Under the pieces are notes generated by a model that made no database searches, had not been told where the DNA came from, and worked only from the letters and a program-made list of their open reading frames with translations. Below, piece by piece: positions 4,315 through 51,514 of a stretch of 64,000 nucleotides of DNA (positions within the stretch are counted from its first letter, which is position 1; each line of letters starts with the position of its first letter). Origin of the DNA: Gemmatimonadota bacterium (GTDB lineage Bacteria > JAAXHH01); assembly GCA_009838645.1 (NCBI GenBank), contig VXRC01000045.1, positions 1,594 to 65,593 on the forward strand, written 5' to 3'. A program made the position numbers and the translations under genes.

Positions 4315-5217
4315 TCAACCGAATTTGATGAAGACGAGTCCGGCGACGATCATCAGCACCGAACCCACTTTCAGCGCGGTGACGCGCTCCTTGAGAAAGA
4401 CGAATCCCAGCACGGCTCCGAGCACCACGGCGAACTCCCGCAGCGCGACGATGTAGCCGACCTGCCCCACGGTCATGGCGAAGAGAATCATCAGGTAGGC
4501 GGCCGTGGATCCGATGCCGATCAGCGCCGCGGGCCGCCAGGTCTCCGCGAATCCGCGCCACCGGATCCCCAGGTGACGGACCGCGACGAAGGGCGTGGCG
4601 AACAGGGCGCTCAAAAAAAACATGCCGAAGATGTATACGACGGGATGGACGATACTCACGCCCACCTTGTCGACGAGGGAGTAGCTCACGATCGTGGCGC
4701 CCACCACCAAGGCGGATGCGAATCCGCGGTTGACGGCCCTCGTGTGCCGGAAGACCGATACCCCCATCAACAGAATGCCGAAGCAGATCAGGCCGATGCC
4801 GGCCACCCCCATCGGCGTCAGTTCCTCACCGAGCAGCAGCCAACCGAGGAATCCTGTGAGTCCGATGCCCGATCCCCGGGCGATGGGGTAGACCAGAGAG
4901 ATCTCTCCGTGTTCGTAGGCCCGAGCCAGGAACAGAAAGTAGAAGGTATGGATGACGCCGGTGGCGAGCACGTAGAACCATCCGGCTTCCAGCATGGAGA
5001 TGAATCCCGCGGGCCCCATTCCAGAGGCCACGATCGCCACGAAGGGCAGAAGGAACAGGCAGCTGATCCAGAGGGACCACCAGAAGACGGTCAGATTCCC
5101 AGAGCTGCGCCGGGCGACGAAATTCCACGTGGCGTGCAGGACGGCGGACAGCAGAACGAAGACGAAGAGGTCAGTGGGCATGGACGGGTAAGTTGAACCG
5201 GCAAACACGCCTGTCAA
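4315..5217 (-). CDS. DMT/EamA-family transporter
   Basis: 300-aa highly hydrophobic ORF with about 10 predicted TM segments and a duplicated EamA-like architecture. Confidence 0.6.
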   Translation of the reverse strand: MTGVFAGSTYPSMPTDLFVFVLLSAVLHATWNFVARRSSGNLTVFWWSLWISCLFLLPFVAIVASGMGPAGFISMLEAGWFYVLATGVIHTFYFLFLARAYEHGEISLVYPIARGSGIGLTGFLGWLLLGEELTPMGVAGIGLICFGILLMGVSVFRHTRAVNRGFASALVVGATIVSYSLVDKVGVSIVHPVVYIFGMFFLSALFATPFVAVRHLGIRWRGFAETWRPAALIGIGSTAAYLMILFAMTVGQVGYIVALREFAVVLGAVLGFVFLKERVTALKVGSVLMIVAGLVFIKFG

Positions 5218-5378
5218 CGGTTTTATGGTGGCTTGACAGGCACTCGGTGCACGGCTAACTTTTTCTTCCGGAATGCATTTGTTACAAGCATCTCCTTTTG
5301 CGAAAGACAGTCGTATCCAATTCCAGTTTTTCGTATAGCACTGCCCTCATTCCTTCCAACCACCGAAAGGAACCCCCG

Positions 5379-6413
5379 ATGCCCCTGAAATTCGCGTACC
5401 TGGGCCTCTGGCACAGCCACGCCGGCATGCATATCCGCGACGCCGCGAGCCGGCCGGACGAGTTCCAGCTCGTCGGCGCATACGAGCCGGATCCCGCGAT
5501 CCGGAACACGAAGCTGGGTGACTGGGTGGCGGACCTGCCGGACATCCCCGTCTTCGATTCGATCGAGCAGGCGTTGGACAGCGATGCGGAAGCGATCATC
5601 TGCGAGGGCCGCGTCTCGGAGAACCTGGACTACGCCGAACGGGCGCTCGCGGCGGACAAGCACGTGCTTCTCGAGAAGCCGGCGGGCGTGGACATGGCCC
5701 AACTCGAGCGGCTGCACGACACGGCGCGTCGCAAGAACCTGCACCTCCAGATGGCCTACATGTGGCGATATAATCCTGCGGTCGCCGAAATGATCCGGCT
5801 CTGCAGGGCCGGCGCGCTGGGCGATCCCTTCTACTTCAGGGGGCACATCCCGAAGCCCATGGGGTACCACGCCAGGCTGGTGGAGGAACTCGACCGGTAC
5901 AAGGGTTCCCTCTATTTCGAGATGGCCGGGCACCTGGTCGACATCATGGTGACGTTTATGGGCGAGCCACGGCGGGTGGACGCCACGTTCGGGCAATTCC
6001 ACGGCGAACGAAAGCACGTGGACAACGCGGTGGTCGTCCACCGGTTCGACGGCGGCGGCCTGGGGACGATCGACACCGCGTCCATGCACGTGGAGAGCGG
6101 GCTGACCCGGCGTATCGAGTTATACGGGGCCCGGGGCACGGCCATCCATACCCCGATCGGTTCGAACAACCTGACGCTTTCGCTGGCGGATGCCTTCGAA
6201 GGCTATGCGGCGGGATGGCAGGAGGTCACCGTTCCCACGCCGCCGGGACCGCCTTCGCTGCTGACCGAACTCGCGGCCTGTATATCCGGCGCGAAGGAGC
6301 CGGACTATACCCTGGACCACGATATGGCGGTGCATCGCACCCTCTTCGCGGGGTGCGGCATCACCGATGGTTCGGCGATGACGGACGTGCCGCATTCGGT
6401 AAAAAGCGGTTGA
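5379..6413 (+). CDS. Gfo/Idh/MocA-family NAD(P)-dependent oxidoreductase
   Basis: The internal Met (MPLKFAYLGLWHSHAGMH...) is preceded by AAAGGA 8 nt upstream. The pattern EKP...A..HVLLEKP is typical of the Gfo/Idh/MocA Rossmann N-terminus. The upstream 27 codons of ORF 5298..6413 lack an RBS. Confidence 0.7.
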   Translation: MPLKFAYLGLWHSHAGMHIRDAASRPDEFQLVGAYEPDPAIRNTKLGDWVADLPDIPVFDSIEQALDSDAEAIICEGRVSENLDYAERALAADKHVLLEKPAGVDMAQLERLHDTARRKNLHLQMAYMWRYNPAVAEMIRLCRAGALGDPFYFRGHIPKPMGYHARLVEELDRYKGSLYFEMAGHLVDIMVTFMGEPRRVDATFGQFHGERKHVDNAVVVHRFDGGGLGTIDTASMHVESGLTRRIELYGARGTAIHTPIGSNNLTLSLADAFEGYAAGWQEVTVPTPPGPPSLLTELAACISGAKEPDYTLDHDMAVHRTLFAGCGITDGSAMTDVPHSVKSG

Positions 6414-6450
6414 CAGTAGCCGCGAATTCCGTATATTAATGGATAGACGA

Positions 6451-6527
<77 letters not shown>

Positions 6528-6535
6528 TGATCGAT

Positions 6536-6572
6536 CAGGGGCGGTTCCCGGACCGCCCCTGTTTTTGTTTGT
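6536..6572 (+). terminator. Rho-independent terminator downstream of tRNA-Met
   Basis: Perfect 10-bp stem caggggcggt / accgcccctg with a 6-nt loop, followed by tttttgtttg. Confidence 0.65.
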
Positions 6573-6680
6573 GCCGCTTCCGCCGTCTGGACCGCACGGC
6601 GTTGGGTCGCTTGTGGCAAGAGATCCGCGGTGAAACGCCCCAGACCGATCATACCTGAAACTTGTGGCAAAGGAACCCCG

Positions 6681-8354
6681 ATGGCTGAAATGACCGGCTA
6701 CCGGTACATCGCGGAGATGCTGCGCGGCTACGGGATCAGGGCCGTCTTCCACGTTCCCTACGTTCTGGACGGCGCCCTCGTGGAGATGGAGAAACTGGGC
6801 ATCCGGCGGATCCGGTGCCATTCCGAGAAGGCCGCCGCGTACATGGCGGACGGTTACGCGCGGGTCGCCCACGGTCCCGGTATCGCCATGGCGCAGTCCG
6901 TGGGCGCGGCCAATCTCGCCGCCGGGCTCCAGGACGCCTGGCTTGCGTGCTCCCCGGTCATCGCCGTAACGGGCCGGTGGATGCCCCACTACCTATACCA
7001 GCAGGCCTACCAGGAGATCGACCACCGCCCCCTCTACGATCCGGTCACCAAGTTCAATGCCTACGTGGACGGCGTGGAACAGATCCCCTTCCTGCTGCGC
7101 CAGGCCTTCCGCGAGGCCACCACGGGCGCGCCCCGTCCGGTCCACCTGGACTTTCTGGGCCTGTCCGGCGATCTCGCGGCGGGGTCGAAGCTCGACGCCG
7201 AGGTGACCGTGGAGCCGTCCTTCGCCCGGTATCCGGCCTTCCGGCCCGAACCGGAACCGGGTCGTGTCGCGGATGCGGCGCAGCGCATCGCGCGGTCGCA
7301 GCGGCCGGTACTGGTTGCGGGGGGAGGGGTCACCGCATCGGGCGCGAAGGCCGAGGTGGTCCGGTTGGCGGAGAAGCTCTCCGTCCCGGTGGCGACTTCC
7401 CTGAACGCCAAGGGGGCGACACCGGAGAACCACCCATTATCCGCAGGCGTGGTGGGCACCTATTCCCGCAAGTGCGCCAACGAGATCGTTTCGGAGGCGG
7501 ACCTCGTGATCTTCGTGGGCAGCCATACGGGCGGGCAGGTCAGTCACTTCTGGCAGATTCCCCGGCAGGGGACGCCGGTCATACAGATCGACGTGGACCC
7601 CGCCCAGATCGGCCGCAACTATCCCGCCGAAGTCGCCATCCAGGGCGACGCGAAGGCGACGCTGGAACGCCTCATCGAGGTCGTGGCCCCGGTCTTGGAC
7701 CGAACGGCCTGGACAGAGCGCGTGCGCGTACTCGTCGACCAATGGCGGGGCGAATTCGACGATCTGCTCAAGTCTGATGCCGTACCCATCCGCCCCGAAC
7801 GTCTGTGCCGCGAAATCACCGAATTCCTCCCACCCGACGCCATCCTCCTTTCGGACACGGGCCATGCCGGCATGTGGACGGGCGCCATGATCGAGATCAC
7901 GAACCCGGGACAGACGTACCTTCGCTGCGCCGGGTCCCTGGGCTGGGCCTTCCCCGCGGCCATGGGCGCGAAGTGCGCGGCGCCGGACCGTCCCGTCATC
8001 TGCTTCACCGGCGACGGCGGATTCTGGTACCATCTCGGGGAACTCGAGACGGCCGCCCGATTCGGGATCAACACCGTCACGGTGATCAACAACAACCGGT
8101 CCTTCAACCAGTGCCGGGACGCTTTCGAAGATGCGAGCGGCGGGCGGGACCAAGATTCAGACGACCTGTGGGTCTTTGAAGACATCGATTTCGCCGGGGT
8201 GGCCAAATCCATGGGATGCAAAGGGATACGCGTGGAAGAACCGGAGCGGATCCGGCCGGCTCTTGAAGAAGCGATGGCGGCCGACGGACCGGTTGTCGTA
8301 GACGTGGCCACCGATATCGACGCCATGGCGCCGAAAGCCTACGTACCGGAATAG
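6681..8354 (+). CDS. Thiamine-pyrophosphate-dependent enzyme (acetolactate-synthase-like family)
   Basis: Start MAEMTGYRYIAEML has AAAGGAAC upstream. Three-domain TPP-enzyme layout. The C-terminal block GSLGWAFPAAMGAKCAAPDRPVICFTGDGGFWY..NN is the TPP-binding GDG-(N)-NN motif. Confidence 0.75.
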   Translation: MAEMTGYRYIAEMLRGYGIRAVFHVPYVLDGALVEMEKLGIRRIRCHSEKAAAYMADGYARVAHGPGIAMAQSVGAANLAAGLQDAWLACSPVIAVTGRWMPHYLYQQAYQEIDHRPLYDPVTKFNAYVDGVEQIPFLLRQAFREATTGAPRPVHLDFLGLSGDLAAGSKLDAEVTVEPSFARYPAFRPEPEPGRVADAAQRIARSQRPVLVAGGGVTASGAKAEVVRLAEKLSVPVATSLNAKGATPENHPLSAGVVGTYSRKCANEIVSEADLVIFVGSHTGGQVSHFWQIPRQGTPVIQIDVDPAQIGRNYPAEVAIQGDAKATLERLIEVVAPVLDRTAWTERVRVLVDQWRGEFDDLLKSDAVPIRPERLCREITEFLPPDAILLSDTGHAGMWTGAMIEITNPGQTYLRCAGSLGWAFPAAMGAKCAAPDRPVICFTGDGGFWYHLGELETAARFGINTVTVINNNRSFNQCRDAFEDASGGRDQDSDDLWVFEDIDFAGVAKSMGCKGIRVEEPERIRPALEEAMAADGPVVVDVATDIDAMAPKAYVPE

Positions 8355-8582
8355 AACGGGCGATTGTCTTTACCGAATCGTGGTCCATATCACGCATCGT
8401 TCACGATGGTCCGTCGGACGCCCAGTCCACGGACGCCCTCCCTCCGGGCATCCCAGCCTTCCACAGAAACTGTTTCCTGTTTGTCAAATAGTTAGTACAT
8501 TACAATCAAACAGCGACGCTTTCTCAGCATTTCCAGAATCCAATACTGGCTATTACGCGATTCCAAAGGCAGGAGGTCTACC

Positions 8583-9437
8583 ATGCGCTGTCTGGTATTC
8601 GCATTTGCCATGATTTTCGCCGGATGCTCGTCGTACACCCAGCTTGGATCTGGCGGATCCGGCGACTCGCGCGGTTCAAGCACGGCGGACGGTTCGGAAA
8701 CGACAGTAGTCTGGCTGGACAGCCAGGGCGCGTTACCATCGGTCGGGTACTTCGACGTGCAGACCATCTTCAACGTGTCTGAACTGGGGCCCGGTTCCTA
8801 CATACGCGTCGCGGCCATCCACATCACGGGGACGGCGCGGGAGGCCCTCGTCAATAAGTTGCGGCTGAGCGCATCGCAGATCGGGGCGAACAGGCTGCTC
8901 ATCGTCAAGGTGGAGGAGACCAAAGAGGAAGTCTCGCTCTATTCCGAACTCGAGAACGTGGCCCGGTTTTTCTCCGGAGAGAAAGCAGACGCGGACCTGA
9001 GCAACGAAGCCTACACGCTCAGGATCGACGCGATCGCGATCCGGCAATCGGATGACCTGACAAACATTCTTCCAACCCGACAAGGGCAGGACTGGCCAAC
9101 CGTCTATCGACCCCGTTCGTCCTATGATCGGCCGACCGTTTATCGGCCCCGCCGGCCCCGCCGGCCCTATGACCGGCCGACCGTCTACCGACCGCCTCGA
9201 CGGGATAACCGTCCGATGGCGAAGCCGCCACGACGGGATGACCGGCGACCGGTGAATCCGCCGACACCAAAGGATGAACCGCCGATCGTAGCGCCGCCCC
9301 CTCCGAAGGATGACCGTCCACCCGACAGGACGCCTCCACCGAGGGACGAACCGCCCGAGATGAAACCGCCGCCACCACCTCCGGAGGAAGACAGGTCGTC
9401 CCGTAAGCAGCCCCGCATGAAGACCCATCGGCCTTGA
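8583..9437 (+). CDS. Lipoprotein with proline-rich repetitive C-terminal tail
   Basis: AGGAGG sits 7 nt upstream of the ATG. Lipobox signal MRCLVFAFAMIFAGCSS. The C-terminus carries three copies of DRPTVYRP followed by PPxKD(D/E)xPP repeats. The preceding intergenic region is AT-richer and looks promoter-like. Confidence 0.45.
   Translation: MRCLVFAFAMIFAGCSSYTQLGSGGSGDSRGSSTADGSETTVVWLDSQGALPSVGYFDVQTIFNVSELGPGSYIRVAAIHITGTAREALVNKLRLSASQIGANRLLIVKVEETKEEVSLYSELENVARFFSGEKADADLSNEAYTLRIDAIAIRQSDDLTNILPTRQGQDWPTVYRPRSSYDRPTVYRPRRPRRPYDRPTVYRPPRRDNRPMAKPPRRDDRRPVNPPTPKDEPPIVAPPPPKDDRPPDRTPPPRDEPPEMKPPPPPPEEDRSSRKQPRMKTHRP
9090..9195. repeat. In-frame imperfect tandem repeats (about 20-24 bp units ggccgaccgtctatcgacc...) inside the lipoprotein gene
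   Basis: Units at about 9093-9112, 9130-9149 and 9174-9193, plus an internal gccccgccggccccgccggccc. Confidence 0.6.
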
Positions 9438-9447
9438 TACGGTAAGG

Positions 9448-10290
9448 TCAGAAACGGGCACTTTCCGCGTCGGGGAGGATGCCGCCTTCATCCCTGGGCA
9501 GGACCGAAAGGGGCAGGGCAATAGAGGAGCCCGCATCGACCGGGAGCGTGATCCCCGTGATCCAGCGGGATTCGTCGCCGGCCAGGAAGGCGGCCGCGTT
9601 GGCCACGTCCCAGGCCGTGCCCTCGGTACCCAGCGGCGTGGAGCGCCGCCGGAGTTCCCGGTGCGCGTCCGAGAGTTCGGCGGTGAAGGACCCGTGTAGG
9701 TGCCCAGGGGCGATGCAGTTCACGCGGATCCCGTCCTTGCCGTGCTGTACCGCCATGTTGATGGTCAGGGCGATGACCCCGCCCTTGGAAGTCTCGTAGG
9801 CGACGTTGTACGACCATCCGCTCCGGAATCCGTCGATGGACGCCACGTTGATGATGGATCCTCCCCCGGAATCCATCATTGCCGGTATGGCGAACCGGCT
9901 TGCGAGCATCATGGCCTTGAGGTTCACCGCCATGATCTCGTCCCAGTGCTCCTCTTGCACGTCCACCACCGTACCCGGATGGCTGAGACCCACGTTGTTG
10001 AAGAGGATGTGCAGCCCGCCGTACCGGTCCACCGCGGTCTCGGTCATGGCCCGGCAGTCCGCCGACCGGGTCACGTCCCCGGCGAAGACCGACGCCGTGC
10101 CCCCTTCTTCCTCGATGACGGCCAGCGTCTTTCCGGCGTTCTCCGCGCTTCGGTCCGCCAGCAGCACCTTCGCGCCTTCTCGGGCGAGGAGCACGGCGGT
10201 CGCCTGCCCGGTGCCCGCCACGTCGCTATGCGCGCCCGCGCCCGTCACGACGGCCACCTTGTCGTCCAGACGGGGTTTACGAGGGTTCAT
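9448..10290 (-). CDS. SDR-family oxidoreductase
   Basis: True start MNPRKPRLDDKVAVVTGAGAH (TGxxxGxG). Downstream YxxxK is consistent with the SDR active site. Its ATG overlaps the TGA of the upstream SDR by 1 nt (TGATG). The 233 codons upstream in ORF 9448..10989 are a Gly/Arg-rich open-frame artifact. Confidence 0.8.
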   Translation of the reverse strand: MNPRKPRLDDKVAVVTGAGAHSDVAGTGQATAVLLAREGAKVLLADRSAENAGKTLAVIEEEGGTASVFAGDVTRSADCRAMTETAVDRYGGLHILFNNVGLSHPGTVVDVQEEHWDEIMAVNLKAMMLASRFAIPAMMDSGGGSIINVASIDGFRSGWSYNVAYETSKGGVIALTINMAVQHGKDGIRVNCIAPGHLHGSFTAELSDAHRELRRRSTPLGTEGTAWDVANAAAFLAGDESRWITGITLPVDAGSSIALPLSVLPRDEGGILPDAESARF

Positions 10291-11141
10291 CAGAAGATCT
10301 CCGCGCCGCCCGCCACCACCAGGTCCACGGCCGTGAGGTAGTCCGATTCCGGTGAGGCCAGGAAGGCCACCGTTTGCGCCACGTCGTCGCTCCGGGCCAC
10401 CCGTCCCAGGGGTGAAATACCGGCCTTTTCCTGGATAAACGCCCTGTGGGCTTCGCTGTTCTTCCACGATGTGCCCTGGACGGCGCCGTCGGATACGGCC
10501 TCTTCGATGAATCCCAGGCGCTCGGTATCGACCGCGGTAGGCGATACCGAGTTGACGTTGATCCCGTGGGGACCGAGTTCCTGCGCCAGGGCCTGGGTGA
10601 ACCGGATGATGGCCGCCTTGGACGCGCAGTAGGCCGAGAACCGCTTCCTCCCGATCCTGCCCGACGTGGAGGCGAGGTTGATGATCTTGCCGCCCACACC
10701 CCGCTCGATCATGTGGCGCGCAGCGGCCCGGCACATGAGGAACACGCCCTTTGCGTTGACGTTCATCTCCTTGTCCCAGGCTTCCTCTTCCATGTCGACG
10801 ACGAGCACGCGGTCCTTGCCCGGCAGGGAGCCGGCGCCGTTCACGAGGATGTCGATGCGGCCGAACCGGTCGATCCCCCCGGAAACGAGCCGTTCCACCT
10901 GGTCGGCCTGCGAGACGTCGGCCAGGATGGCCTCCGCGCTGCGCCCCGCCGCCTCGATCTCCCCGACCACGGAGGGCAGCCCCTGCCATTCCGACGAGTC
11001 GCCGGGATAGGGATTTGCGACCCGGTCGCTGACGATGACGTCGGCGCCTTCCTTCGCGAGCCGCGTGGCGACGGCCCGGCCGATGCCACGTTCCCCACCC
11101 GCGCCGGTGACCAGGGCGGTTTTGCCGTGCAGGTTGTACAT
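10290..11141 (-). CDS. SDR-family oxidoreductase
   Basis: Start MYNLHGKTALVTGAGGERGIG (Rossmann TGAGxxxGxG); SAYCASK contains the Yxxx(A)K catalytic motif. Translationally coupled to the SDR at 9448..10290. Confidence 0.8.
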   Translation of the reverse strand: MYNLHGKTALVTGAGGERGIGRAVATRLAKEGADVIVSDRVANPYPGDSSEWQGLPSVVGEIEAAGRSAEAILADVSQADQVERLVSGGIDRFGRIDILVNGAGSLPGKDRVLVVDMEEEAWDKEMNVNAKGVFLMCRAAARHMIERGVGGKIINLASTSGRIGRKRFSAYCASKAAIIRFTQALAQELGPHGINVNSVSPTAVDTERLGFIEEAVSDGAVQGTSWKNSEAHRAFIQEKAGISPLGRVARSDDVAQTVAFLASPESDYLTAVDLVVAGGAEIF

Positions 11142-11208
11142 TATTGACCTTCTGGACGGATCACTCGAGTTCTGTTTCAGACGCTCAGCAGATCTGCGAA
11201 GAAACCAA

Positions 11209-11508
11209 TCACGCCGTAAACCGCACCTGGAGACCCAGGGCACGCACGATACGAACTACCGTGGAGAATGCGGGATTGCCGTCCTCCGACAGTGCTTTGT
11301 ACAACCCTTCCCGGCTCATTCCAATCTCACGGGCCAGCCAGCTCATGTTCCCCGAACGGGCGATATCGTTCAGGGCGGCACGTATCAGGCTGCCATCTCC
11401 TGGATCTTCTTTCGCGCATGCTTCCAGGTAAAGACGAGCGTCTTCCAAGGTGCGCAGGTGCTCCGTCACTTTCCACTTTGAAAATGAAATACTCATTTCC
11501 ACCTCCAA
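11209..11508 (-). CDS. HigA-like 'addiction module antidote' HTH protein (orphan)
   Basis: 99-aa ORF. WKVTEHLRTLEDARLYLEA...IRAALNDIARSGNMSWLAREIGMSREGLYKALSEDGNPAFSTVVRIVRALGL matches the COG3636-type antitoxin family as I remember it. Local GC is lower than the flanks. No RelE/ParE-like partner fits in the 40 bp upstream. Confidence 0.55.
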   Translation of the reverse strand: MEVEMSISFSKWKVTEHLRTLEDARLYLEACAKEDPGDGSLIRAALNDIARSGNMSWLAREIGMSREGLYKALSEDGNPAFSTVVRIVRALGLQVRFTA

Positions 11509-46914: not shown

Positions 46915-47036
46915 GGCCACCCGGTTCTTCAGAATATACTCAACCATCTAATCGGTATTTGACCGGCAATAGCTTGTCGAAATACGTTGCCACGTATGTT
47001 TTAATTTCAAACAATATATCGAATATTATTGACAAT

Positions 47037-47065
47037 CATGTTCGATTTTTGTATATGTTCTATTA
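47037..47065 (+). promoter_or_regulatory. Near-consensus sigma70 promoter TTGACA-N17-TATATG upstream of islet 1's first gene
   Basis: ttgacaatcatgttcgatttttgtatatg, then GAGGGAGGTGAGTA-ATG (strong SD) at 47106. Confidence 0.35.
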
Positions 47066-47105
47066 CGTATCGCCAACCGATCCACCACTGCGAGGGAGGT
47101 GAGTA

Positions 47106-48338
47106 ATGGATCTCAGAGAGCTCGGACAAAGACTGCGTTATGCGCGGGAGTTCAGGGGGCTCAGTCAACAGGCGACAGCGAAAGCCATTGGTGTGACAAG
47201 AACGGCAATTACTCAGATGGAGTCCGGTAACCGGTCAGTTTCGACACTGGAACTGTCAAAACTCGCTGAGTGTTTTAGACGACCGATAAGCTACTTTTTT
47301 CAGGAGACTACCGAGGAAGAAGATATACTAATCTCGCTATACCGAATTGCACCTAATTTGAAAAGCAATCGTGCAATTCGAAATCGAGTTGGTCAGTGCC
47401 TAGACCTCTTTCGAGAAGGCTTGGCCATGAAAAAGATCCTCGGTATAGAATCCCGTGCAGGTCTACCCGTGTATGATATTCAACCCCCTCGAACCAGAGG
47501 CGATGCTATTACCCAGGGCAATAAGGCTGCTACAGAAGAGAGGCGTCGGTTAGGCATAGGTGAGTCTCCGATTCACAATATCACGGAGCTAATTGTGTCG
47601 CAGGGAATCTGGGCTTCCGATGCAAAACTGCCACAAGAGATGTCGGGACTTTTTGTTAATCATAGCTCATTTGGATTGGCGATTGTCGTTAACTCAGATC
47701 ATTCGCGAGGTCGGAAACAGTTTTCCTATGCACATGAATATGCCCATGCACTTATGGACAGGGATGGGAATCTAGCGGTCTCCAGTAGAGAAAACTCGTC
47801 CGAACTGGTGGAAGTACGAGCAAACGCATTTGCCGCGTCTTTTTTAATGCCTGCAGGAGGCGTATACGAAGAACTAAAGGACTTGGATACGGATTTCCCT
47901 TACCAAAGGGTTCATACCGTATACGATGCTGCCCGTGGAGAGCCATTAGAAGGAGTCATACGTACGTCACCAAGTTCGCGTGGCGTGACCTATAAAGACG
48001 TGGCGAAAATAGCACATCGTTTTGGGGTTAGTTATCAGGCAGCACTATATCGAATGAAAAGTCTAAGGATAGTATCTGACCAGGAAATGGACCGTCAGAT
48101 GGCATTAGAAGATCTAGGTAAGGAGTTTCTCAATGAGTTAAGCGATTCCGAAAGTGTAGAAAGAAGGGATTTGAAAAAACCATCTGATCGAGAACTGCGC
48201 TTTGAAGTGGCTGGTCTTGCAATTGAGGCCTTCCGAAGAGATTGTATCTCCCAAGGCCGACTTCTAGAACTAAGTAAGTTGCTAAAAATAGATGGTCAGC
48301 AATTTATCGACTTTGCATTGAAGGCGCGTGGGAATTGA
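47106..48338 (+). CDS. Fusion of XRE-family HTH and ImmA/IrrE (M78) zinc metallopeptidase domains
   Basis: N-terminal HTH LRYAREFRGLSQQATAKAIGVTRTAITQMESGNR. HExxH in FSYAHEYAHALMD. 410 aa. Confidence 0.75.
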   Translation: MDLRELGQRLRYAREFRGLSQQATAKAIGVTRTAITQMESGNRSVSTLELSKLAECFRRPISYFFQETTEEEDILISLYRIAPNLKSNRAIRNRVGQCLDLFREGLAMKKILGIESRAGLPVYDIQPPRTRGDAITQGNKAATEERRRLGIGESPIHNITELIVSQGIWASDAKLPQEMSGLFVNHSSFGLAIVVNSDHSRGRKQFSYAHEYAHALMDRDGNLAVSSRENSSELVEVRANAFAASFLMPAGGVYEELKDLDTDFPYQRVHTVYDAARGEPLEGVIRTSPSSRGVTYKDVAKIAHRFGVSYQAALYRMKSLRIVSDQEMDRQMALEDLGKEFLNELSDSESVERRDLKKPSDRELRFEVAGLAIEAFRRDCISQGRLLELSKLLKIDGQQFIDFALKARGN

Positions 48339-48340
48339 AA

Positions 48341-48862
48341 ATGTGTATGGTGAAAAACAAGCCCAAGATCGTAATGGATTCAACAGTGATAGTCAGTCTA
48401 TTACGTACAGATCGCTTAGCAATATTCAGCCGATTTGCCCACGGTCGTCTGCTGATAACAAACCATGTATTAGTGGAGATAACAAACTGTTTCCCCGATC
48501 AATTGAAGTCATTTGAGTATCTGGTTGATCGCGGGATTTTAAAGCAGATCTCTGTCAGTAACAAGGACGAACTGTTGGTGTTCCGTGATCTATGTAAACT
48601 AAACACGTTGGGTATTGGTGAATGCGCTGCCATTGCGGTTGCTGTAACAGGAAATCGAATCTTGGCGATAGATGGTAGATGTGCCTCAAGTCAAGCCAGA
48701 AGGATGCAACCAGATCTTCGCATTTTAAGCACCAAGAATCTAATGGATACTTTGCTTAAGAATAACGTGATGGATGAAAACAGACTCAAGACAGCATTAA
48801 ATGCACCATTTAATACGAGTTCCGACCGACCCCCAAACACAGGCGTCGTGGAGTCTTCTTAG
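48341..48862 (+). CDS. PIN-like domain protein (resembles DUF3368/COG2405-type PIN nucleases)
   Basis: KIVMDSTVIV (beta1 Asp), VLVEIT, LGIGECAAIAVAV...LAIDGR pattern. ATG lies 3 nt after the stop of the HTH-ImmA gene. An alternative TTG start at 48335 overlaps that stop. Confidence 0.5.
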   Translation: MCMVKNKPKIVMDSTVIVSLLRTDRLAIFSRFAHGRLLITNHVLVEITNCFPDQLKSFEYLVDRGILKQISVSNKDELLVFRDLCKLNTLGIGECAAIAVAVTGNRILAIDGRCASSQARRMQPDLRILSTKNLMDTLLKNNVMDENRLKTALNAPFNTSSDRPPNTGVVESS

Positions 48863-48928
48863 ATTGTCAACTGTTTACCTTTTGAAGTCAGTCTGATTAG
48901 AAACCATTGACTCGGTAGATGACAAATT

Positions 48929-49849
48929 ATGCCCGATAGCAAAAAGTTTTACGTTCTTGCTTTGGATGGTGGCGGTACAAGAGGGGTATATTCCGCGCAA
49001 CTTCTTTCCAAGCTTGAAACGACATTGGGACGTAGTATCAGAGACTGTTTCCATCTTATAGCTGGATCAAGCACCGGTTCAATTGTAGCGGGTGCGGCTG
49101 CAACAGGTATAAAGATGGAAAAAACCGTTGGTTTTTTTGAGAAATCGGCCAAAAGGGTATTCAAGAAACGTTTTTATCGATGTGGATTAACAAAAAGTAA
49201 GTACCGAAATGAGCAACTTAGGGAAGTTATTACAGATTCACTTCCTTCAATAACTCTTGGCGAAATTGAAACACCGCTGATGATAACTGGTTCCGATACG
49301 AGTACCGGCAAAGCGAGGGTATTCAAGTCAAGATACTTAAAGCAACTTGGAGAACCTTACGTAATGGATGGGAACTTGCTATTGAGCAAAGTGATTCTAG
49401 CTTCGTGTTCCGCACCAACATTTTTCGATCCAACAGATATCGATGGTCATCTAGTTGTCGATGGCGGTCTCTGGGCTAACAATCCTTCGATCATATCGCT
49501 TTCCGAAGCTATTTCGAAATTCAACAGGGAGGTAAAAGATGTCAAAATCCTATCCATAGGGACAGGACAGAAAACCGAAAGCATATACGCTAGACAGAAG
49601 CACTGGGGATTACTTACAGGATGGGGTGGGGTCAAACTCGTTACGTATTTCCTTGACCTGCAGTCTCAAGCTTCCAAGAACATGGCCGAGTTAGTCCTTG
49701 GTAACAACTATCTTCGTCTTAACCCATCGATAGGAGACTGGAACCTGGACGATACAGAGCACTTGGAAAACCTACGGTCTCTTGCTGACATGGATTACTC
49801 GTACAATGTAGATGCAATAAAAGCTTTTACAATTCCCGATGGAGGTTAA
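48929..49849 (+). CDS. Patatin-like phospholipase (CapV-like candidate effector)
   Basis: Oxyanion hole LDGGGTRG, nucleophile elbow AGSSTG (GxSxG), and catalytic Asp in VVDGGLWANNP. Confidence 0.85.
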   Translation: MPDSKKFYVLALDGGGTRGVYSAQLLSKLETTLGRSIRDCFHLIAGSSTGSIVAGAAATGIKMEKTVGFFEKSAKRVFKKRFYRCGLTKSKYRNEQLREVITDSLPSITLGEIETPLMITGSDTSTGKARVFKSRYLKQLGEPYVMDGNLLLSKVILASCSAPTFFDPTDIDGHLVVDGGLWANNPSIISLSEAISKFNREVKDVKILSIGTGQKTESIYARQKHWGLLTGWGGVKLVTYFLDLQSQASKNMAELVLGNNYLRLNPSIGDWNLDDTEHLENLRSLADMDYSYNVDAIKAFTIPDGG

Positions 49850-49851
49850 AA

Positions 49852-51471
49852 ATGAAACATCCTCAATACTTTGTTGATTTCCTAAAAAATGAAGTCAACC
49901 TGAATCCGGATAGGCTTGAAACACTCAAAAGTAGGTCTAGTGCAGTAGGTAAATACCTGCGCGACAACCTGGGTTTATATCGAAAGACGGAACGACAGGG
50001 ATCGTATGCTACTGAAACGATAATTAAACCAGTTAACAATCATGAATATGACGCAGACTTGCTTCTTTACATGAAGTATGATGCGGACAAAGTACCTCGG
50101 GAATACATAGAGGATGTTTACAGTTGCCTGAAGAAGAATAAAACCTACAAGGATAAGATCCACAGAAAGACCCACTGCGTTATAATTGACTATACAGGGG
50201 ATTTCCATCTGGATCTCGTCCCTTGTATTGAAAGCAACGGTAGCTCATATGTGTGTAACAGACAGACTAACAAGTACGAACTCACAGATGGGACTGGTTA
50301 TAGGGACTGGTTCATTGGTAAATCCAGAAAGACAAATGGTCACTTAAAACGAGTGGTAAGATTGCTGAAGTACCTAAGGGACATTAAGCAGACCTTTTCA
50401 ATACCCTCGATTGTATTGACGACTCTTGTCGCAAGGGAAGTACTAGAGTGGGGTGACGAGAACCGCTATAGTGATATTCCAGAAACATTGAAAACAATAT
50501 CTAATAGGATCAACGGTTTTCTACAAGCCAACCACTACTTACCTTCAATCGCTAATCCCGTCATTCCATCAGAAAACCTCGCCACAAACTGGAGCCAAGA
50601 TCAGTATACGAACTTCAGAAGCAAATTCGATCTATACAATAGTAAAATCAATGATGCTTACGCTGAAAATGACCACAACGAAAGTGTTAAAAAATGGCGA
50701 AGTGTTTTCGGTGAGAAATTCGGTAAGCTTAATGGTACAAACACGTACAGGAGTGCATTGGGTACTACAGGAATTACCTCATCCGTGACCCCTAGGAAGC
50801 AGCACGCTGGTTTGCACGAGATTGCCAGAGAATTCCCACTTAATGATAACCAGATACAGAGATTATTGGACCAGTTTCCACGTTTACGTTATGAACCAGA
50901 ACCAAAAAGGATCGTCGGTGGAATTGACTTCTGCGCCTATTACGACACAAAGTCGGGGAAACTTGAAATTGGCGACTTAGAAGATGCACGAACACATCCT
51001 CTGTTTATTTGCGATAGTTATGAAATCAAAATATGCTTGAATTCTGTGGATCTAAATGGCTGGCCAGCTGTTTATGAATCTGGTGGCAGACATTACGAGA
51101 TTGCTACCCGGTACAGAATACCTGAAGTTGATCTACATTTCTATCCGAATAGTGGTGCCTGCTGTCTTGGAATAAGAAGATCACGTCCAAGTACACGATT
51201 TGATGTCATACAGTTTGTAGCTGACCTGGTTATCCCGTTTCTATACCGACTTTCTTATGTAGATAAGTTCGGGTTGGAAGCTGCACGTAGGGATCTTTGG
51301 GGTGAGTATTCCCATTCGGATGGTATACAGGAGTATATAACAGAAATGTTAGTATACGCTGGTAAAAACCCAGGACGGAATACCAGTTGTCCGTGCGGAA
51401 GTGGAAAGAAATACAAAAACTGCCATATGAATGAGGTAGAGCATACATTGAATGCAGTAAATAGCCTGTGA
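49852..51471 (+). CDS. SMODS/CD-NTase-like nucleotidyltransferase with C-terminal extension of about 200 aa ending in a SEC-C zinc motif
   Basis: Pol-beta NTase motifs RQGSYATETIIKPVNNHEYDADLLLYM (GS...DxD) and third acidic residue in DFHLDLVPC. Downstream IPSIVLTTLVAREV resembles the CD-NTase hpShhLEhL helix. C-terminus SCPCGSGKKYKNCH. GGAGG sits 6 nt upstream, and the gene starts 3 nt after the patatin stop. Confidence 0.6.
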   Translation: MKHPQYFVDFLKNEVNLNPDRLETLKSRSSAVGKYLRDNLGLYRKTERQGSYATETIIKPVNNHEYDADLLLYMKYDADKVPREYIEDVYSCLKKNKTYKDKIHRKTHCVIIDYTGDFHLDLVPCIESNGSSYVCNRQTNKYELTDGTGYRDWFIGKSRKTNGHLKRVVRLLKYLRDIKQTFSIPSIVLTTLVAREVLEWGDENRYSDIPETLKTISNRINGFLQANHYLPSIANPVIPSENLATNWSQDQYTNFRSKFDLYNSKINDAYAENDHNESVKKWRSVFGEKFGKLNGTNTYRSALGTTGITSSVTPRKQHAGLHEIAREFPLNDNQIQRLLDQFPRLRYEPEPKRIVGGIDFCAYYDTKSGKLEIGDLEDARTHPLFICDSYEIKICLNSVDLNGWPAVYESGGRHYEIATRYRIPEVDLHFYPNSGACCLGIRRSRPSTRFDVIQFVADLVIPFLYRLSYVDKFGLEAARRDLWGEYSHSDGIQEYITEMLVYAGKNPGRNTSCPCGSGKKYKNCHMNEVEHTLNAVNSL

Positions 51472-51514
51472 TATTTCTGAGAAATAAGGCTAAGATACTT
51501 CCGGAGTATTAAAA

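What the first reader, a model, noticed from the sequence alone, without database searches (positions are those of the whole stretch)
47106..48862. Fused HTH-XRE/ImmA-IrrE protease followed by a coupled PIN-like gene at the head of the island
CBASS CapH (HTH) and CapP (ImmA/IrrE) are normally separate. Here one 410-aa protein has both domains plus a third segment of about 120 aa. Its stop is 3 nt from the ATG of a PIN-like (DUF3368-like) ORF. DUF3368 proteins usually act as toxins paired with UPF0175 antitoxins. Pairing with a protease-repressor instead suggests either a novel TA-like or sensor pair, or a regulatory cassette, in front of the patatin/NTase genes.
Basis: partly seen in the sequence, partly recalled or inferred. 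Interest (0 to 1): 0.6.

Follow-up and report, generated by a model that had tools for sequence, protein, structure and literature searches.

The report
Protease-repressor antitoxin plus PIN toxin cassette
A DNA-binding repressor fused to a zinc protease, followed by a tightly coupled PIN-type nuclease gene, heads a CBASS anti-phage operon; the pair is real, but it is a member of a widespread kind of toxin-antitoxin/regulator module that is already described, so it is a solid but fairly ordinary find.

Summary
ORF1 (47106-48338, 410 aa) is one protein with an XRE helix-turn-helix, an M78/IrrE zinc peptidase (HEYAH + Glu236), an IrrE-type internal HTH and a C-terminal helical bundle. ORF2 (48341-48862, 173 aa) starts 2 nt after its stop and is predicted to have a VapC-like PIN fold.

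The pairing is not new. In 76 of 78 informative genome loci from many phyla, an ORF1 homologue is directly followed by an ORF2-family gene. The promoter and its TGTTCGAT operator are also conserved. The same layout was predicted as a toxin-antitoxin module in 2017, overlaps RosmerTA (RmrA), and matches M. tuberculosis VapBC52 (2026), whose antitoxin cuts itself on ssDNA and releases a PIN toxin.

The cassette occurs alone, on plasmids and in prophage-like contigs. In 20 of 80 loci, however, a CBASS operon lies divergently upstream, the CapH/CapP layout. Lau et al. already listed CapH-CapP fusions with type II-short phospholipase CBASS.

The window is a variant. CBASS lies downstream on the same strand, with no terminator and no second operator, so it is probably co-transcribed.

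Caveat: the window's ORF2 has lost a 93%-conserved Asp (Gly112) and the family's C-terminal motif, so it may be attenuated.

Verdict: new member of a known kind; modest interest.

The parts
47018..47063 (+). Operator cluster. Three copies of the TGTTCGAT motif: 47018-25 on the minus strand (1 mismatch), 47039-46 (exact) and 47056-63 (1 mismatch). They overlap the promoter spacer.
   Evidence: The motif is enriched in the regions upstream of ORF1 homologues: ATCGAAC is present in 50 of 85. Its position is fixed, 10-11 nt after the start of TTGACA, about -67 from the ATG, with a second site 31-44 nt upstream. In the window the three clustered sites are the only ones in the ORF1 leader, and the ORF2-patatin spacer has none. 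The 8-mer alone is not enriched window-wide: 56 matches against 46 expected. That the ORF1 HTH binds here is inferred.
47029..47057 (+). Putative sigma-70-type promoter of the cassette: -35 TTGACA (47029-34), a 17-nt spacer containing TGTTCGAT, and -10 TATATG (47052-57). A Shine-Dalgarno sequence, AGGGAGG, lies at about 47093-47099.
   Evidence: TTGACA, TGTTCGA and GTATAT are invariant or nearly so in five Gemmatimonadota loci whose surrounding spacer has diverged. TTGACA sits at about -75 to -83 in most of the 85 loci. The consensus scanner did not call it, because the -10 lacks the final T.
47106..48338 (+). ORF1, 410 aa: repressor/antitoxin with a fused zinc peptidase.
- XRE HTH, aa 1-65 (47106-47300).
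- Disordered acidic linker, aa 66-73.
- Invariant L78-x-R80 (47337-47345).
- Helical region, aa 74-149.
- M78 peptidase core, aa ~159-258, with H210-E-Y-A-H214 (47733-47747) and E236 (47811-47813).
- IrrE-type HTH, aa 296-333 (47991-48104).
- C-terminal helical bundle, aa 362-407 (48189-48326).
   Evidence: Domain hits. Full-length homologues at 50-81% identity in many phyla, with H210, E211 and E236 invariant and H214 nearly so. Model and secondary structure. Structural matches to CapP (7t5t), IrrE (3dti) and ssDNA-bound PprI (8sln). Closest solved sequence is 9vzy_A, which I identify as VapB52.
48341..48862 (+). ORF2, 173 aa (alternative TTG start at 48335): PIN-fold protein of the COG2405/DUF3368-like type, the putative RNase toxin. 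D13 (48377-79), E46 (48476-78), E94 (48620-22) and D111 (48671-73) are present. Gly112 (48674-76) replaces the conserved Asp. The C-terminal ~25 aa have diverged from the family.
   Evidence: 227 representative relatives at E<=1e-3. Alignment A1. Model at pLDDT 87.9. Foldseek matches only VapC/PIN structures. PADLOC PDC-S70 at 5e-7. Column counts and the lost C-terminal motif.
48863..48928 (+). 66-nt spacer between ORF2 and the patatin gene. It has no terminator-like hairpin, no consensus promoter and no TGTTCGAT site.
   Evidence: The spacer is not conserved with the 41-nt spacer of locus L004. Co-transcription is inferred, not shown.
48929..49849 (+). Patatin-like phospholipase, the CBASS effector (CapV-like). 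It is associated cargo, not part of the two-gene cassette.
   Evidence: NCBIfam CBASS_lipase 6.1e-67, above the cut-off. Pfam Patatin 3e-28. PADLOC phospholipase effector 3.7e-80.
49852..51471 (+). CD-NTase (aa 1-~312) fused to an E2-like domain (aa ~332-531) with a C-terminal SEC-C zinc motif. Associated cargo: a type II-short-like CBASS.
   Evidence: Pfam SMODS 1.1e-29 and SEC-C 2e-8. PADLOC cyclase 1.7e-115 and E2 2.4e-21.

Best explanation
ORF1 and ORF2 form an autonomous, horizontally mobile, two-gene toxin-antitoxin-type sensor cassette. It is of the same kind as M. tuberculosis VapBC52 and the RosmerTA group.

**Proposed mechanism (inferred).**
- ORF1 binds the TGTTCGAT operators over its own promoter through its N-terminal XRE HTH and keeps transcription low.
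- ORF1 also holds the ORF2 PIN nuclease inactive, probably through its N-terminal domain and its conserved C-terminal helical bundle.
- A phage- or damage-derived signal, most likely single-stranded DNA, switches on the IrrE/CapP-type zinc peptidase.
- The peptidase cuts ORF1 itself at the HTH-peptidase junction, near the invariant L78-x-R80.
- That single cut removes the repressor from the promoter and releases the PIN toxin.

**Link to CBASS.** In this window the patatin gene and the CD-NTase-E2 gene lie directly downstream on the same strand. There is no terminator and no second operator. The same event would therefore also raise CBASS expression. The cassette would do in cis what separate CapH and CapP do elsewhere.

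**Shown versus inferred.** Shown: the domain architecture, the gene coupling, conservation of the pair and its operator, and the recurrent link to CBASS. Inferred: repression, toxicity, neutralisation, the ssDNA trigger, self-cleavage and co-transcription.
For: **Architecture of ORF1.**
- HTH plus M78 peptidase, with H210, E211 and E236 invariant and H214 nearly so.
- The model has an IrrE-type HTH and a C-terminal helical bundle, and no GAF domain.
- Structural neighbours are CapP, IrrE and ssDNA-bound PprI.
- The closest solved sequence is 9vzy_A: E 2.3e-12 with the single sequence and 6.4e-16 with the family profile. Its H/H/C/E positions match the published VapB52 numbering.
- VapB52 has the same NTD-peptidase-HTH-CTD layout, self-cleaves on ssDNA and releases a PIN toxin (PMC13273310).
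- The invariant L78-x-R80 lies within about one residue of VapB52's 'FR' cleavage motif.

**ORF2.** It has a PIN fold with D13, E46 and E94 in register.

**Coupling and conservation of the pair.**
- The gap is 2 nt, or a 4-nt overlap with the TTG start.
- An ORF2-family gene directly follows the ORF1 homologue in 76 of 78 informative genome loci across phyla.
- The same holds on plasmids and in 19 of 22 viral or prophage contigs.

**Autonomy.**
- The pair occurs alone at the same chromosomal site in L007, and with a different neighbour in L006 and L008.
- Outside the CBASS-linked loci, the neighbours are heterogeneous.

**Autoregulation.** The promoter and the TGTTCGAT operator are conserved at a fixed position across phyla.

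**Link to CBASS.**
- 20 of 80 loci carry a CD-NTase operon. In all 20 it is upstream and divergent.
- Lau et al. list CapH-CapP fusions with type II-short phospholipase CBASS.
- In the window there is no terminator in the island and no operator or promoter in the ORF2-patatin spacer.
Against: - No experiment exists here. Toxicity, neutralisation, DNA binding, self-cleavage and the trigger are all inferred by analogy.
- Sequence similarity to VapB52 is remote, limited to three short matched stretches.
- ORF2 belongs to a different PIN subfamily (DUF3368/COG2405-like) from VapC52 (DUF4411). The ORF2 family profile finds no significant solved relative by sequence.
- ORF1 lacks the cysteine-switch Cys of CapP and VapB52; a Leu sits at that position. 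It also lacks a GAF domain. Its activation chemistry may therefore differ.
- The window's ORF2 has Gly at the 93%-conserved second Asp and has lost the family's C-terminal W..HRF..F motif. These changes are seen only in the window and L004 lineage, so the toxin arm may be weakened or dead here.
- The co-directional layout with CBASS is seen only in this lineage. The 66-nt spacer could hide a promoter type that the scanner does not recognise.
- The 8-mer operator by itself is not rarer than chance in the window. Its significance rests on its position and on conservation across loci.
Confidence: 0.6

Rival explanations
1. The cassette is purely a CBASS regulator. ORF1 is a fused CapH-CapP that gates CBASS transcription on DNA damage. 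ORF2 is not a toxin but an accessory factor of the defence system, for example a second nuclease effector or an RNA-processing factor.
For: capP and capH HMM hits. CapP is the best structural match. 20 of 80 homologous loci have CBASS in the canonical divergent CapH/CapP position. Lau et al. already classed such fusions as CBASS regulators. In the window's lineage ORF2 has lost a conserved Asp and the C-terminal motif, as if the toxin function were dispensable.
Against: 60 of 80 genome loci, the two plasmid examples and all 22 viral contigs have the pair without any CD-NTase nearby. Locus L007 has the pair alone at the very same chromosomal site. ORF2 is retained next to ORF1 regardless of the neighbours. 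The closest characterised system with this architecture is a genuine TA pair.
Confidence: 0.12
2. The cassette and CBASS are independent neighbours in a defence island. ORF1/ORF2 is a self-contained TA/abortive-infection module. CBASS has its own promoter and is not controlled by ORF1.
For: Downstream neighbours of the pair in other genomes are a mixed bag of restriction-modification genes, PADLOC candidate (PDC) systems and other defence genes. The same chromosomal site carries different cargo in sister genomes. The ORF2-patatin spacer is 66 nt and is not conserved with L004.
Against: All 20 CBASS-linked loci have the same upstream, divergent geometry with a shared 95-215 nt control region. 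That is hard to explain without functional coupling. In the window there is no terminator, promoter or operator between ORF2 and the patatin gene.
Confidence: 0.2
3. In this genome the cassette is a decaying remnant. ORF2 is an inactive PIN relic, and ORF1 survives as an orphan autoregulator with little current role.
For: Gly112 replaces the conserved Asp, and the family's C-terminal motif is lost. ORF2 is only 42% identical to its L004 counterpart, against 81% for ORF1. ORF2 is fragmented in about 9 other loci while ORF1 stays intact.
Against: ORF2 is an intact reading frame with a confidently predicted PIN core (pLDDT above 90 for most of residues 10-130) and three in-register acidic residues plus D111. 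An identical copy occurs in three metagenome samples. The coupled start is preserved.
Confidence: 0.08

Closest known systems
VapBC52 of Mycobacterium tuberculosis (NAR 2026, PMC13273310; PDB 9vzy)
   Same: - The antitoxin is about 410-415 aa, with an N-terminal XRE-type HTH, an IrrE/CapP-like zinc peptidase (HEXXH plus Glu), an internal HTH and a C-terminal helical domain.
- It is paired with a PIN-fold toxin.
- The published mechanism (ssDNA-activated self-cleavage at the HTH-peptidase junction, which frees the toxin) is the model adopted here.
- 9vzy_A is the closest solved sequence to ORF1.
   Different: - Homology is only remote, limited to short matched stretches.
- ORF1 has no cysteine-switch Cys.
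- The toxin belongs to a different PIN subfamily: COG2405/DUF3368-like rather than DUF4411.
- I saw no mention of an adjacent defence operon in the parts of the VapBC52 paper that I read. This family is linked to CBASS in 25% of loci.
RosmerTA (RmrT/RmrA) anti-phage toxin-antitoxin systems (Millman 2022; Ernits 2023, PMC10440598)
   Same: RmrA is an HTH plus ImmA/M78 peptidase antitoxin paired with varied toxins. ORF1 matches 15 PADLOC RmrA models, the best at E 8.7e-31. NetFlax reports PIN-like partners for this antitoxin node.
   Different: The RmrA match covers only residues ~8-260, not the C-terminal 150 aa. ORF2 matches no PADLOC RmrT model; it hits only the candidate family PDC-S70. Anti-phage activity of this family is untested.
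CapH + CapP regulators of CBASS, and the 'CapH-CapP fusions' listed by Lau et al. 2022
   Same: - An HTH repressor plus an ssDNA-activated IrrE-type peptidase next to CBASS.
- CapP is the best structural match to ORF1.
- 20 of 80 homologous loci have the canonical divergent layout.
- Fusions were recorded for 15 CBASS systems; the four listed rows that I read were type II-short phospholipase CBASS, the type in this window.
   Different: - One polypeptide instead of two.
- No GAF domain and no cysteine switch.
- An obligatory PIN partner gene.
- In the window the cassette is co-directional with CBASS and upstream of it, not divergent.
- Most family members are not next to CBASS.
HTH-DUF955(COG2856)-PIN 'three-component' systems predicted by Matelska et al. 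2017 (PMC5499597)
   Same: This is exactly the gene pattern: a fused HTH-DUF955 gene upstream of a COG2405/DUF3368 or DUF4411 PIN gene. The same self-cleavage hypothesis was proposed there.
   Different: That work was a prediction from gene neighbourhoods. It reported no operator, no CBASS link and no delineation of this family.
ImmR/ImmA (ICEBs1) and DdrO/IrrE (Deinococcus)
   Same: An M78 peptidase cleaves an XRE-type repressor on DNA damage to de-repress genes. The peptidase fold and HEXXH chemistry are the same.
   Different: Repressor and protease are separate proteins, there is no toxin partner, and they control mobile-element or repair genes.

Membership tests
VapBC52-like TA (HTH-IrrE-peptidase antitoxin + PIN toxin) | Antitoxin with an N-terminal XRE HTH, a central HEXXH zinc peptidase with a downstream Glu ligand, an internal HTH and a C-terminal helical domain | tested here: met
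   Pfam HTH_3 and Peptidase_M78. H210, E211 and E236 invariant and H214 nearly so. The model shows an HTH at 296-333 and helices at 362-407. 9vzy_A is the best PDB sequence hit.
VapBC52-like TA (HTH-IrrE-peptidase antitoxin + PIN toxin) | Partner is a PIN-fold nuclease with the conserved acidic active site | tested here: inconclusive
   The fold is met: all top Foldseek hits are VapC/PIN. D13, E46 and E94 are in register, but the 93%-conserved second Asp is Gly112, with D111 retained.
VapBC52-like TA (HTH-IrrE-peptidase antitoxin + PIN toxin) | Antitoxin gene directly upstream of the toxin gene, translationally coupled, with the pair conserved as a unit | tested here: met
   The gap is 2 nt, or a 4-nt overlap. 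The pair is conserved in 76 of 78 informative genome loci and in 19 of 22 viral contigs.
VapBC52-like TA (HTH-IrrE-peptidase antitoxin + PIN toxin) | Cysteine-switch residue between HEXXH and the Glu ligand | tested here: not met
   VapB52 C229 aligns to Leu in ORF1, and there is no Cys between residues 215 and 235. About two thirds of CapPs also lack it.
VapBC52-like TA (HTH-IrrE-peptidase antitoxin + PIN toxin) | Toxin arrests growth; antitoxin neutralises it; ssDNA triggers antitoxin self-cleavage | not testable with these tools
   This needs expression, pull-down and in vitro cleavage assays.
RosmerTA | RmrA-type antitoxin (HTH plus M78 peptidase) | tested here: met
   15 PADLOC RmrA models hit, the best at E 8.7e-31 over residues 8-256. 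PADLOC models carry no curated cut-off.
RosmerTA | Partner matches a known RmrT toxin family | tested here: not met
   There is no RmrT hit for ORF2, only PDC-S70 (5e-7) and PDC-S05 (0.055).
RosmerTA | Protects against phage | not testable with these tools
   This needs plaque assays.
CapH/CapP CBASS regulator | XRE-type HTH repressor plus IrrE-family peptidase | tested here: met
   capP 9.2e-18 and capH 1.9e-7. 7t5t (CapP) is the top structural hit and 7t5u (CapH N-terminal domain) is also among the hits.
CapH/CapP CBASS regulator | Two separate genes; CapP carries a C-terminal GAF domain | tested here: not met
   ORF1 is a single ORF in every homologue. Its C-terminus is all-helical with no GAF domain. 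Fusions were nevertheless counted as a CapH/CapP variant by Lau et al..
CapH/CapP CBASS regulator | Encoded upstream of, and on the opposite strand to, the regulated defence operon | tested here: not met
   In the window CBASS is downstream on the same strand. The feature is met in 20 of 80 homologous loci.
CapH/CapP CBASS regulator | Represses the CBASS promoter and releases it on DNA damage | not testable with these tools
   There is only indirect support: a conserved operator over the cassette promoter, and no terminator or second operator before the patatin gene.
COG2405 / DUF3368 (PF11848) PIN family | Match to the family model or reference structure | tested here: inconclusive
   The collection's precomputed Pfam lists PF11848 without a weak or faint mark for this protein and its relatives. 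The local 2025 Pfam copy returned no PF11848 hit, only PIN at E 0.13. The best target-normalised TM-score (0.73, rmsd 3.1) is to 2mdt, the COG2405 reference structure.
   The upstream partner is the HTH-M78 protein in all loci. Matelska et al. already list HTH-DUF955 as a partner of COG2405.

The most novel reading that the evidence does not exclude
The proteins catalogued as 'CapH-CapP fusions' next to CBASS would in fact be antitoxins of an always-present PIN toxin. The cassette would then be a two-armed sensor. One ssDNA-triggered self-cleavage would both switch on the neighbouring CBASS operon and unleash an RNase toxin as a parallel or back-up abortive-infection arm. In lineages such as this window, where CBASS has moved into the cassette's own operon, the toxin arm is being lost (Gly112, lost C-terminal motif). 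That would be a TA module caught in the act of being domesticated into a pure immune regulator.
Probability: 0.3. Interest if true: 0.55.

Novelty: new member of a known kind. Interest (0 to 1): 0.3.

Why it matters
The result places an unnamed but very widespread gene pair in a known mechanistic class. ORF1 has at least 2,595 homologues at E<=1e-10, and ORF2's family has 227 representative clusters. In the two plasmid records examined, PGAP calls ORF1 homologues 'XRE family transcriptional regulator' and ORF2 homologues 'hypothetical protein'.

The analysis also gives testable handles: a conserved operator (TGTTCGAT in the promoter spacer), a candidate cleavage site (L78-x-R80) and catalytic residues.

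The recurrent link with CBASS, always in the same geometry, suggests that some TA antitoxins double as damage-responsive gates for neighbouring immune operons. If confirmed, this would connect the TA and immune-regulation fields and would refine how 'CapH-CapP fusions' are annotated. It is not a new principle.

Tried and rejected
- **ORF2 homologue search.** The word-index search found only ORF2 itself. The exhaustive HMMER search was needed to find the family.
- **DUF3368 assignment.** The local Pfam copy did not reproduce the precomputed PF11848 hit. NCBIfam and PHROGs gave nothing for ORF2. The ORF2 family profile found no significant solved structure by sequence; PIN 1o4w scored only E 0.14, alongside chance CARD-domain hits.
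- **PrpR/RamB-type metabolic regulator for ORF1.** Rejected. Only the HTH region matches RamB (E 2.9e-5 against a cut-off of 700 bits). PrpR is a weak structural hit behind CapP and IrrE.
- **GAF domain for the third segment.** Rejected, because the segment is all-helical.
- **Frameshift as the cause of ORF2's odd C-terminus.** Rejected. The family motif is absent from all three frames.
- **Second operator or promoter before the patatin gene.** None found. An 8-mer (TTGACAAT) shared by the cassette promoter and the spacer, seen by eye, was judged too weak to use.
- **Gene calling in high-GC loci.** My first two ORF-based gene callers picked shadow ORFs. I replaced them with a codon-position GC filter.
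- **Third conserved gene.** Apart from CBASS in 25% of loci, no upstream family recurs in more than 2 of 95 neighbours, and no downstream family in more than 3 of 128.
- **ORF1-ORF2 complex prediction.** Not possible, because the structure tool folds single chains only.
- **EMBO J version of Lau et al.** Not held. I used the bioRxiv version and its Table S1.
Full report
**Observation.**

The region lies in a low-GC island (42-48% GC, about 46920-51510) inside a 63-68% GC genome. A source record for the identical ORF1 protein assigns it to a Gemmatimonadetes MAG. The island holds four co-directional genes:
- ORF1, 47106-48338, 410 aa.
- ORF2, 48341-48862, 173 aa.
- A patatin-like CBASS phospholipase, 48929-49849.
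- A CD-NTase, 49852-51471.

ORF1's TGA ends at 48338 and ORF2's ATG is at 48341. A TTG at 48335 would overlap the stop by 4 nt.

ORF1 carries Pfam HTH_3 (residues 10-64, E 3.7e-13) and Peptidase_M78 (167-263, E 2.3e-18). It hits PADLOC RmrA (8.7e-31), capP (9.2e-18) and capH (1.9e-7). It hits the NCBIfam spr1629 repressor/antitoxin model below its cut-off.

The evidence on ORF2 is mixed at the sequence level. The local Pfam copy gives only a sub-threshold PIN hit (E 0.13). The collection's own precomputed annotation gives PF11848/DUF3368. PADLOC gives the candidate family PDC-S70 (5e-7).

**ORF2 is a PIN-fold protein, with a blemish.**

An exhaustive HMMER search found 227 representative relatives at E<=1e-3, mostly about 170 aa long. 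In an alignment of 70 of them, D13, E46, E94 and a 'DD' pair are nearly invariant. 15 of the 70 hit PF01850.

The AlphaFold model (pLDDT 87.9) matches only PIN/VapC structures by Foldseek. The best E-value is 7.8e-5 (5ed0_A). The best target-normalised TM-score, 0.73, is to 2mdt. Matelska et al. list 2mdt as the COG2405/DUF3368 structure.

The window's protein keeps D13, E46, E94 and D111. It has Gly at position 112, where 65 of 70 relatives have Asp. It also lacks the family's C-terminal W..HRF..F motif. Among 72 ORF2 copies in the fetched loci, 'DG' and 'DS' occur only in the window and its closest relative L004. No alternative frame restores the motif.

**ORF1 is a four-part protein of a very conserved family.**

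More than 2,595 homologues score E<=1e-10. More than 100 are full length (410-412 aa) at 50-81% identity. H210, E211 and E236 are invariant and H214 is nearly so. L78, R80 and many C-terminal residues are also invariant.

The AlphaFold model (pLDDT 80) shows these parts:
- An XRE HTH at residues 3-56.
- A disordered linker at 66-70.
- Long helices at 74-149.
- The peptidase core at 159-258.
- A beta hairpin at 268-285.
- A three-helix HTH at 296-333.
- After a disordered loop, three helices at 362-407.

There is no GAF domain. Foldseek's best hits are CapP (7t5t, 5.2e-6), IrrE (3dti), ssDNA-bound PprI (8sln) and PrpR. The N-terminal domain matches C-proteins, HipB and the CapH N-terminal domain.

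By sequence, the closest solved chain is 9vzy_A: E 2.3e-12 with the single sequence and 6.4e-16 with the family profile. I identify 9vzy_A as VapB52, because its His/His/Cys/Glu positions equal the published H216/H220/C229/E245 plus one. The Cys of that 'cysteine switch' aligns to Leu in ORF1.

**The pair is a conserved, autonomous, mobile module.**

A scan of one genome per species returned 80 loci. They come from Gemmatimonadota, Alpha- and Gammaproteobacteria, Latescibacterota, Binatia, Spirochaetia, Acidobacteriota, Nitrospinaceae and others.
- Two of the 80 loci are cut off by a contig end.
- In 76 of the other 78, an ORF2-family gene starts within a few bases of the ORF1 stop. Many overlap it by 4 nt.
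- In about nine of those loci ORF2 is broken into pieces while ORF1 is intact.

The pair also sits on conjugative or mobilisable plasmids. In the two plasmid records examined, PGAP calls the genes 'XRE family transcriptional regulator' and 'hypothetical protein'. It is present in 19 of 22 IMG/VR contigs that carry a full-length ORF1 relative.

Three sister Gemmatimonadota genomes carry the pair at exactly the same chromosomal site, between an AP-endonuclease/UxuA-like gene and a PhyH gene. The cargo differs:
- L004: patatin plus CD-NTase.
- L006 and L008: an opposite-strand methyltransferase-HNH gene.
- L007: no defence cargo; only one small (72-aa) opposite-strand gene was called downstream.

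The flanking genes are 92-98% identical to the window's. ORF1 is 66-81% identical, ORF2 34-42%, and the CBASS genes about 65%. Island alleles are therefore being exchanged at a fixed hotspot.

**A conserved promoter and operator.**

Upstream of ORF1, five Gemmatimonadota loci share TTGACA, then TGTTCGA in the spacer, then GTATAT and AGGAG. Across 85 loci, ATCGAAC (the reverse complement of GTTCGAT) is the most enriched 7-mer, present in 50 of 85. TGTTCGAT lies 10-11 nt after the start of TTGACA, about -67 from the ATG. A second copy lies 31-44 nt further upstream, in either orientation.

In the window the sites are at 47018-25 (minus strand), 47039-46 and 47056-63. Taken across the whole window the 8-mer is not rarer than chance (56 matches against 46 expected). 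The argument therefore rests on its position and on conservation across phyla. This points to autorepression by the ORF1 HTH, which is an inference.

**Relation to CBASS.**

Iterated HMM searches found a CD-NTase in 20 of the 80 genome loci. In all 20 it is upstream of ORF1 and on the opposite strand. PADLOC found at least 13 patatin effectors, cyclase models of several kinds, and HORMA (type III) partners. That is the geometry Lau et al. describe for CapH/CapP. Their Table S1 marks 15 rows 'CapH-CapP fusion'; the four I read are all type II-short phospholipase CBASS.

In the remaining loci the upstream neighbours are heterogeneous, with no family in more than 2 of 95 proteins. Downstream neighbours are assorted restriction-modification genes, PADLOC candidate systems and other defence genes.

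The window and L004 are the only cases with CBASS downstream on the same strand. There is no terminator-like hairpin anywhere in the island. There is no consensus promoter and no operator in the 66-nt ORF2-patatin spacer. Read-through from the cassette promoter is therefore the simplest reading, but it remains an inference.

**Mechanism proposed.**

The proposal is by analogy with VapBC52 (PMC13273310). There, the N-terminal and C-terminal domains of the antitoxin clamp a PIN dimer. ssDNA activates the IrrE-type peptidase. Self-cleavage at an 'FR' motif at the junction frees the toxin.

I propose that ORF1 represses its own promoter, holds ORF2 inactive, and cuts itself near the invariant L78-x-R80. 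That motif aligns within about one residue of 'FR'. The cut would occur when ssDNA or a related signal appears. It would release the PIN nuclease and, in this window, also raise CBASS transcription.

None of these biochemical steps is shown here. The missing cysteine switch and the missing GAF domain mean the activation details could differ. Gly112 and the lost C-terminal motif mean the toxin arm may be attenuated in this lineage.

**Comparison with what is known, and novelty.**
- The gene pattern was described and interpreted in 2017: a fused HTH-DUF955 gene followed by a COG2405/DUF3368 or DUF4411 PIN gene.
- The antitoxin class is RosmerTA's RmrA, with PIN-like partners noted by NetFlax.
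- The CBASS link was noted by Lau et al., together with a vapC-like gene beside such a fusion in a DISARM locus.
- A member of the class now has a structure and a mechanism.

What this analysis adds:
- Delineation of a specific, highly conserved family.
- Its operator.
- The strict geometry and the 25% frequency of its CBASS linkage.
- The co-directional, possibly toxin-attenuated variant in this window.

I therefore rate it a new member of a known kind, with modest interest (0.3). The most novel reading still open is that these 'fusion regulators' are dual-output TA sensors being domesticated into pure immune regulators (probability about 0.3).

Noticed in passing
window 49852-51471: The CBASS cyclase is a 539-aa fusion: a CD-NTase (aa 1-~312), an E2-like domain (PADLOC E2, aa 332-531, E 2.4e-21) and a C-terminal SEC-C zinc motif (CPCGSGKKYKNC). 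In other CBASS-linked loci of the same cassette family a gene matching this C-terminal part is separate (247-259 aa) and lacks the SEC-C motif. L004 has the same fusion.
   Followed up: partly
window ~46915-51514; loci L004, L006, L007, L008: The island sits at a fixed hotspot between an AP-endonuclease/UxuA-like gene and a PhyH gene. The flanking genes are 92-98% identical between genomes. Island genes are only 34-81% identical, and the cargo differs: CBASS, a methyltransferase-HNH gene, or nothing. No integrase or tRNA gene appeared in the gene lists of the island; I did not run a tRNA search. This suggests allele exchange by flanking homology.
   Followed up: partly
loci L014, L032, L035, L043, L054, L058, L060, L072, L076: In about nine of the 80 genome loci the PIN gene is split or truncated while the ORF1 homologue is intact. 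This could be toxin decay that leaves an orphan regulator, or indel errors in long-read MAG assemblies. I did not distinguish between the two.
   Followed up: no
window 47397-47399 (Cys98); alignments A2/A6, positions 98 and 102: The ORF1 family has two nearly invariant cysteines (C98 and C102, in 'RCVxLCREG') in the helical region ahead of the peptidase. It has none at the CapP/VapB52 cysteine-switch position. The window and L004 keep C98 but have Phe at 102. Whether these act as an N-terminal, MMP-like cysteine switch is unknown.
   Followed up: no
L088 (Sphingopyxis plasmid pSFD01, NZ_AP017899.1) 4613-11221: On this plasmid the cassette is flanked divergently by a DUF2188 gene and an Abi-family fragment. 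A DNA methyltransferase and a DEAD/DEAH helicase follow downstream. Lau et al. also found DUF2188 operons next to CapH/CapP-like genes.
   Followed up: no
window ~58714 onward (from L001 11963-12111): About 7 kb downstream of the island, a 452-aa gene with AAA_15/AAA_21 domains (the ATPase type found in AbiEii-, OLD- and Septu-like systems) begins among PhyH and cupin genes. It was not examined.
   Followed up: no
L109 5288-5797 (IMG/VR contig): In one viral contig the ORF2-family gene lies on the opposite strand, convergent with the ORF1 homologue. It is the only such case among about 100 loci.
   Followed up: no
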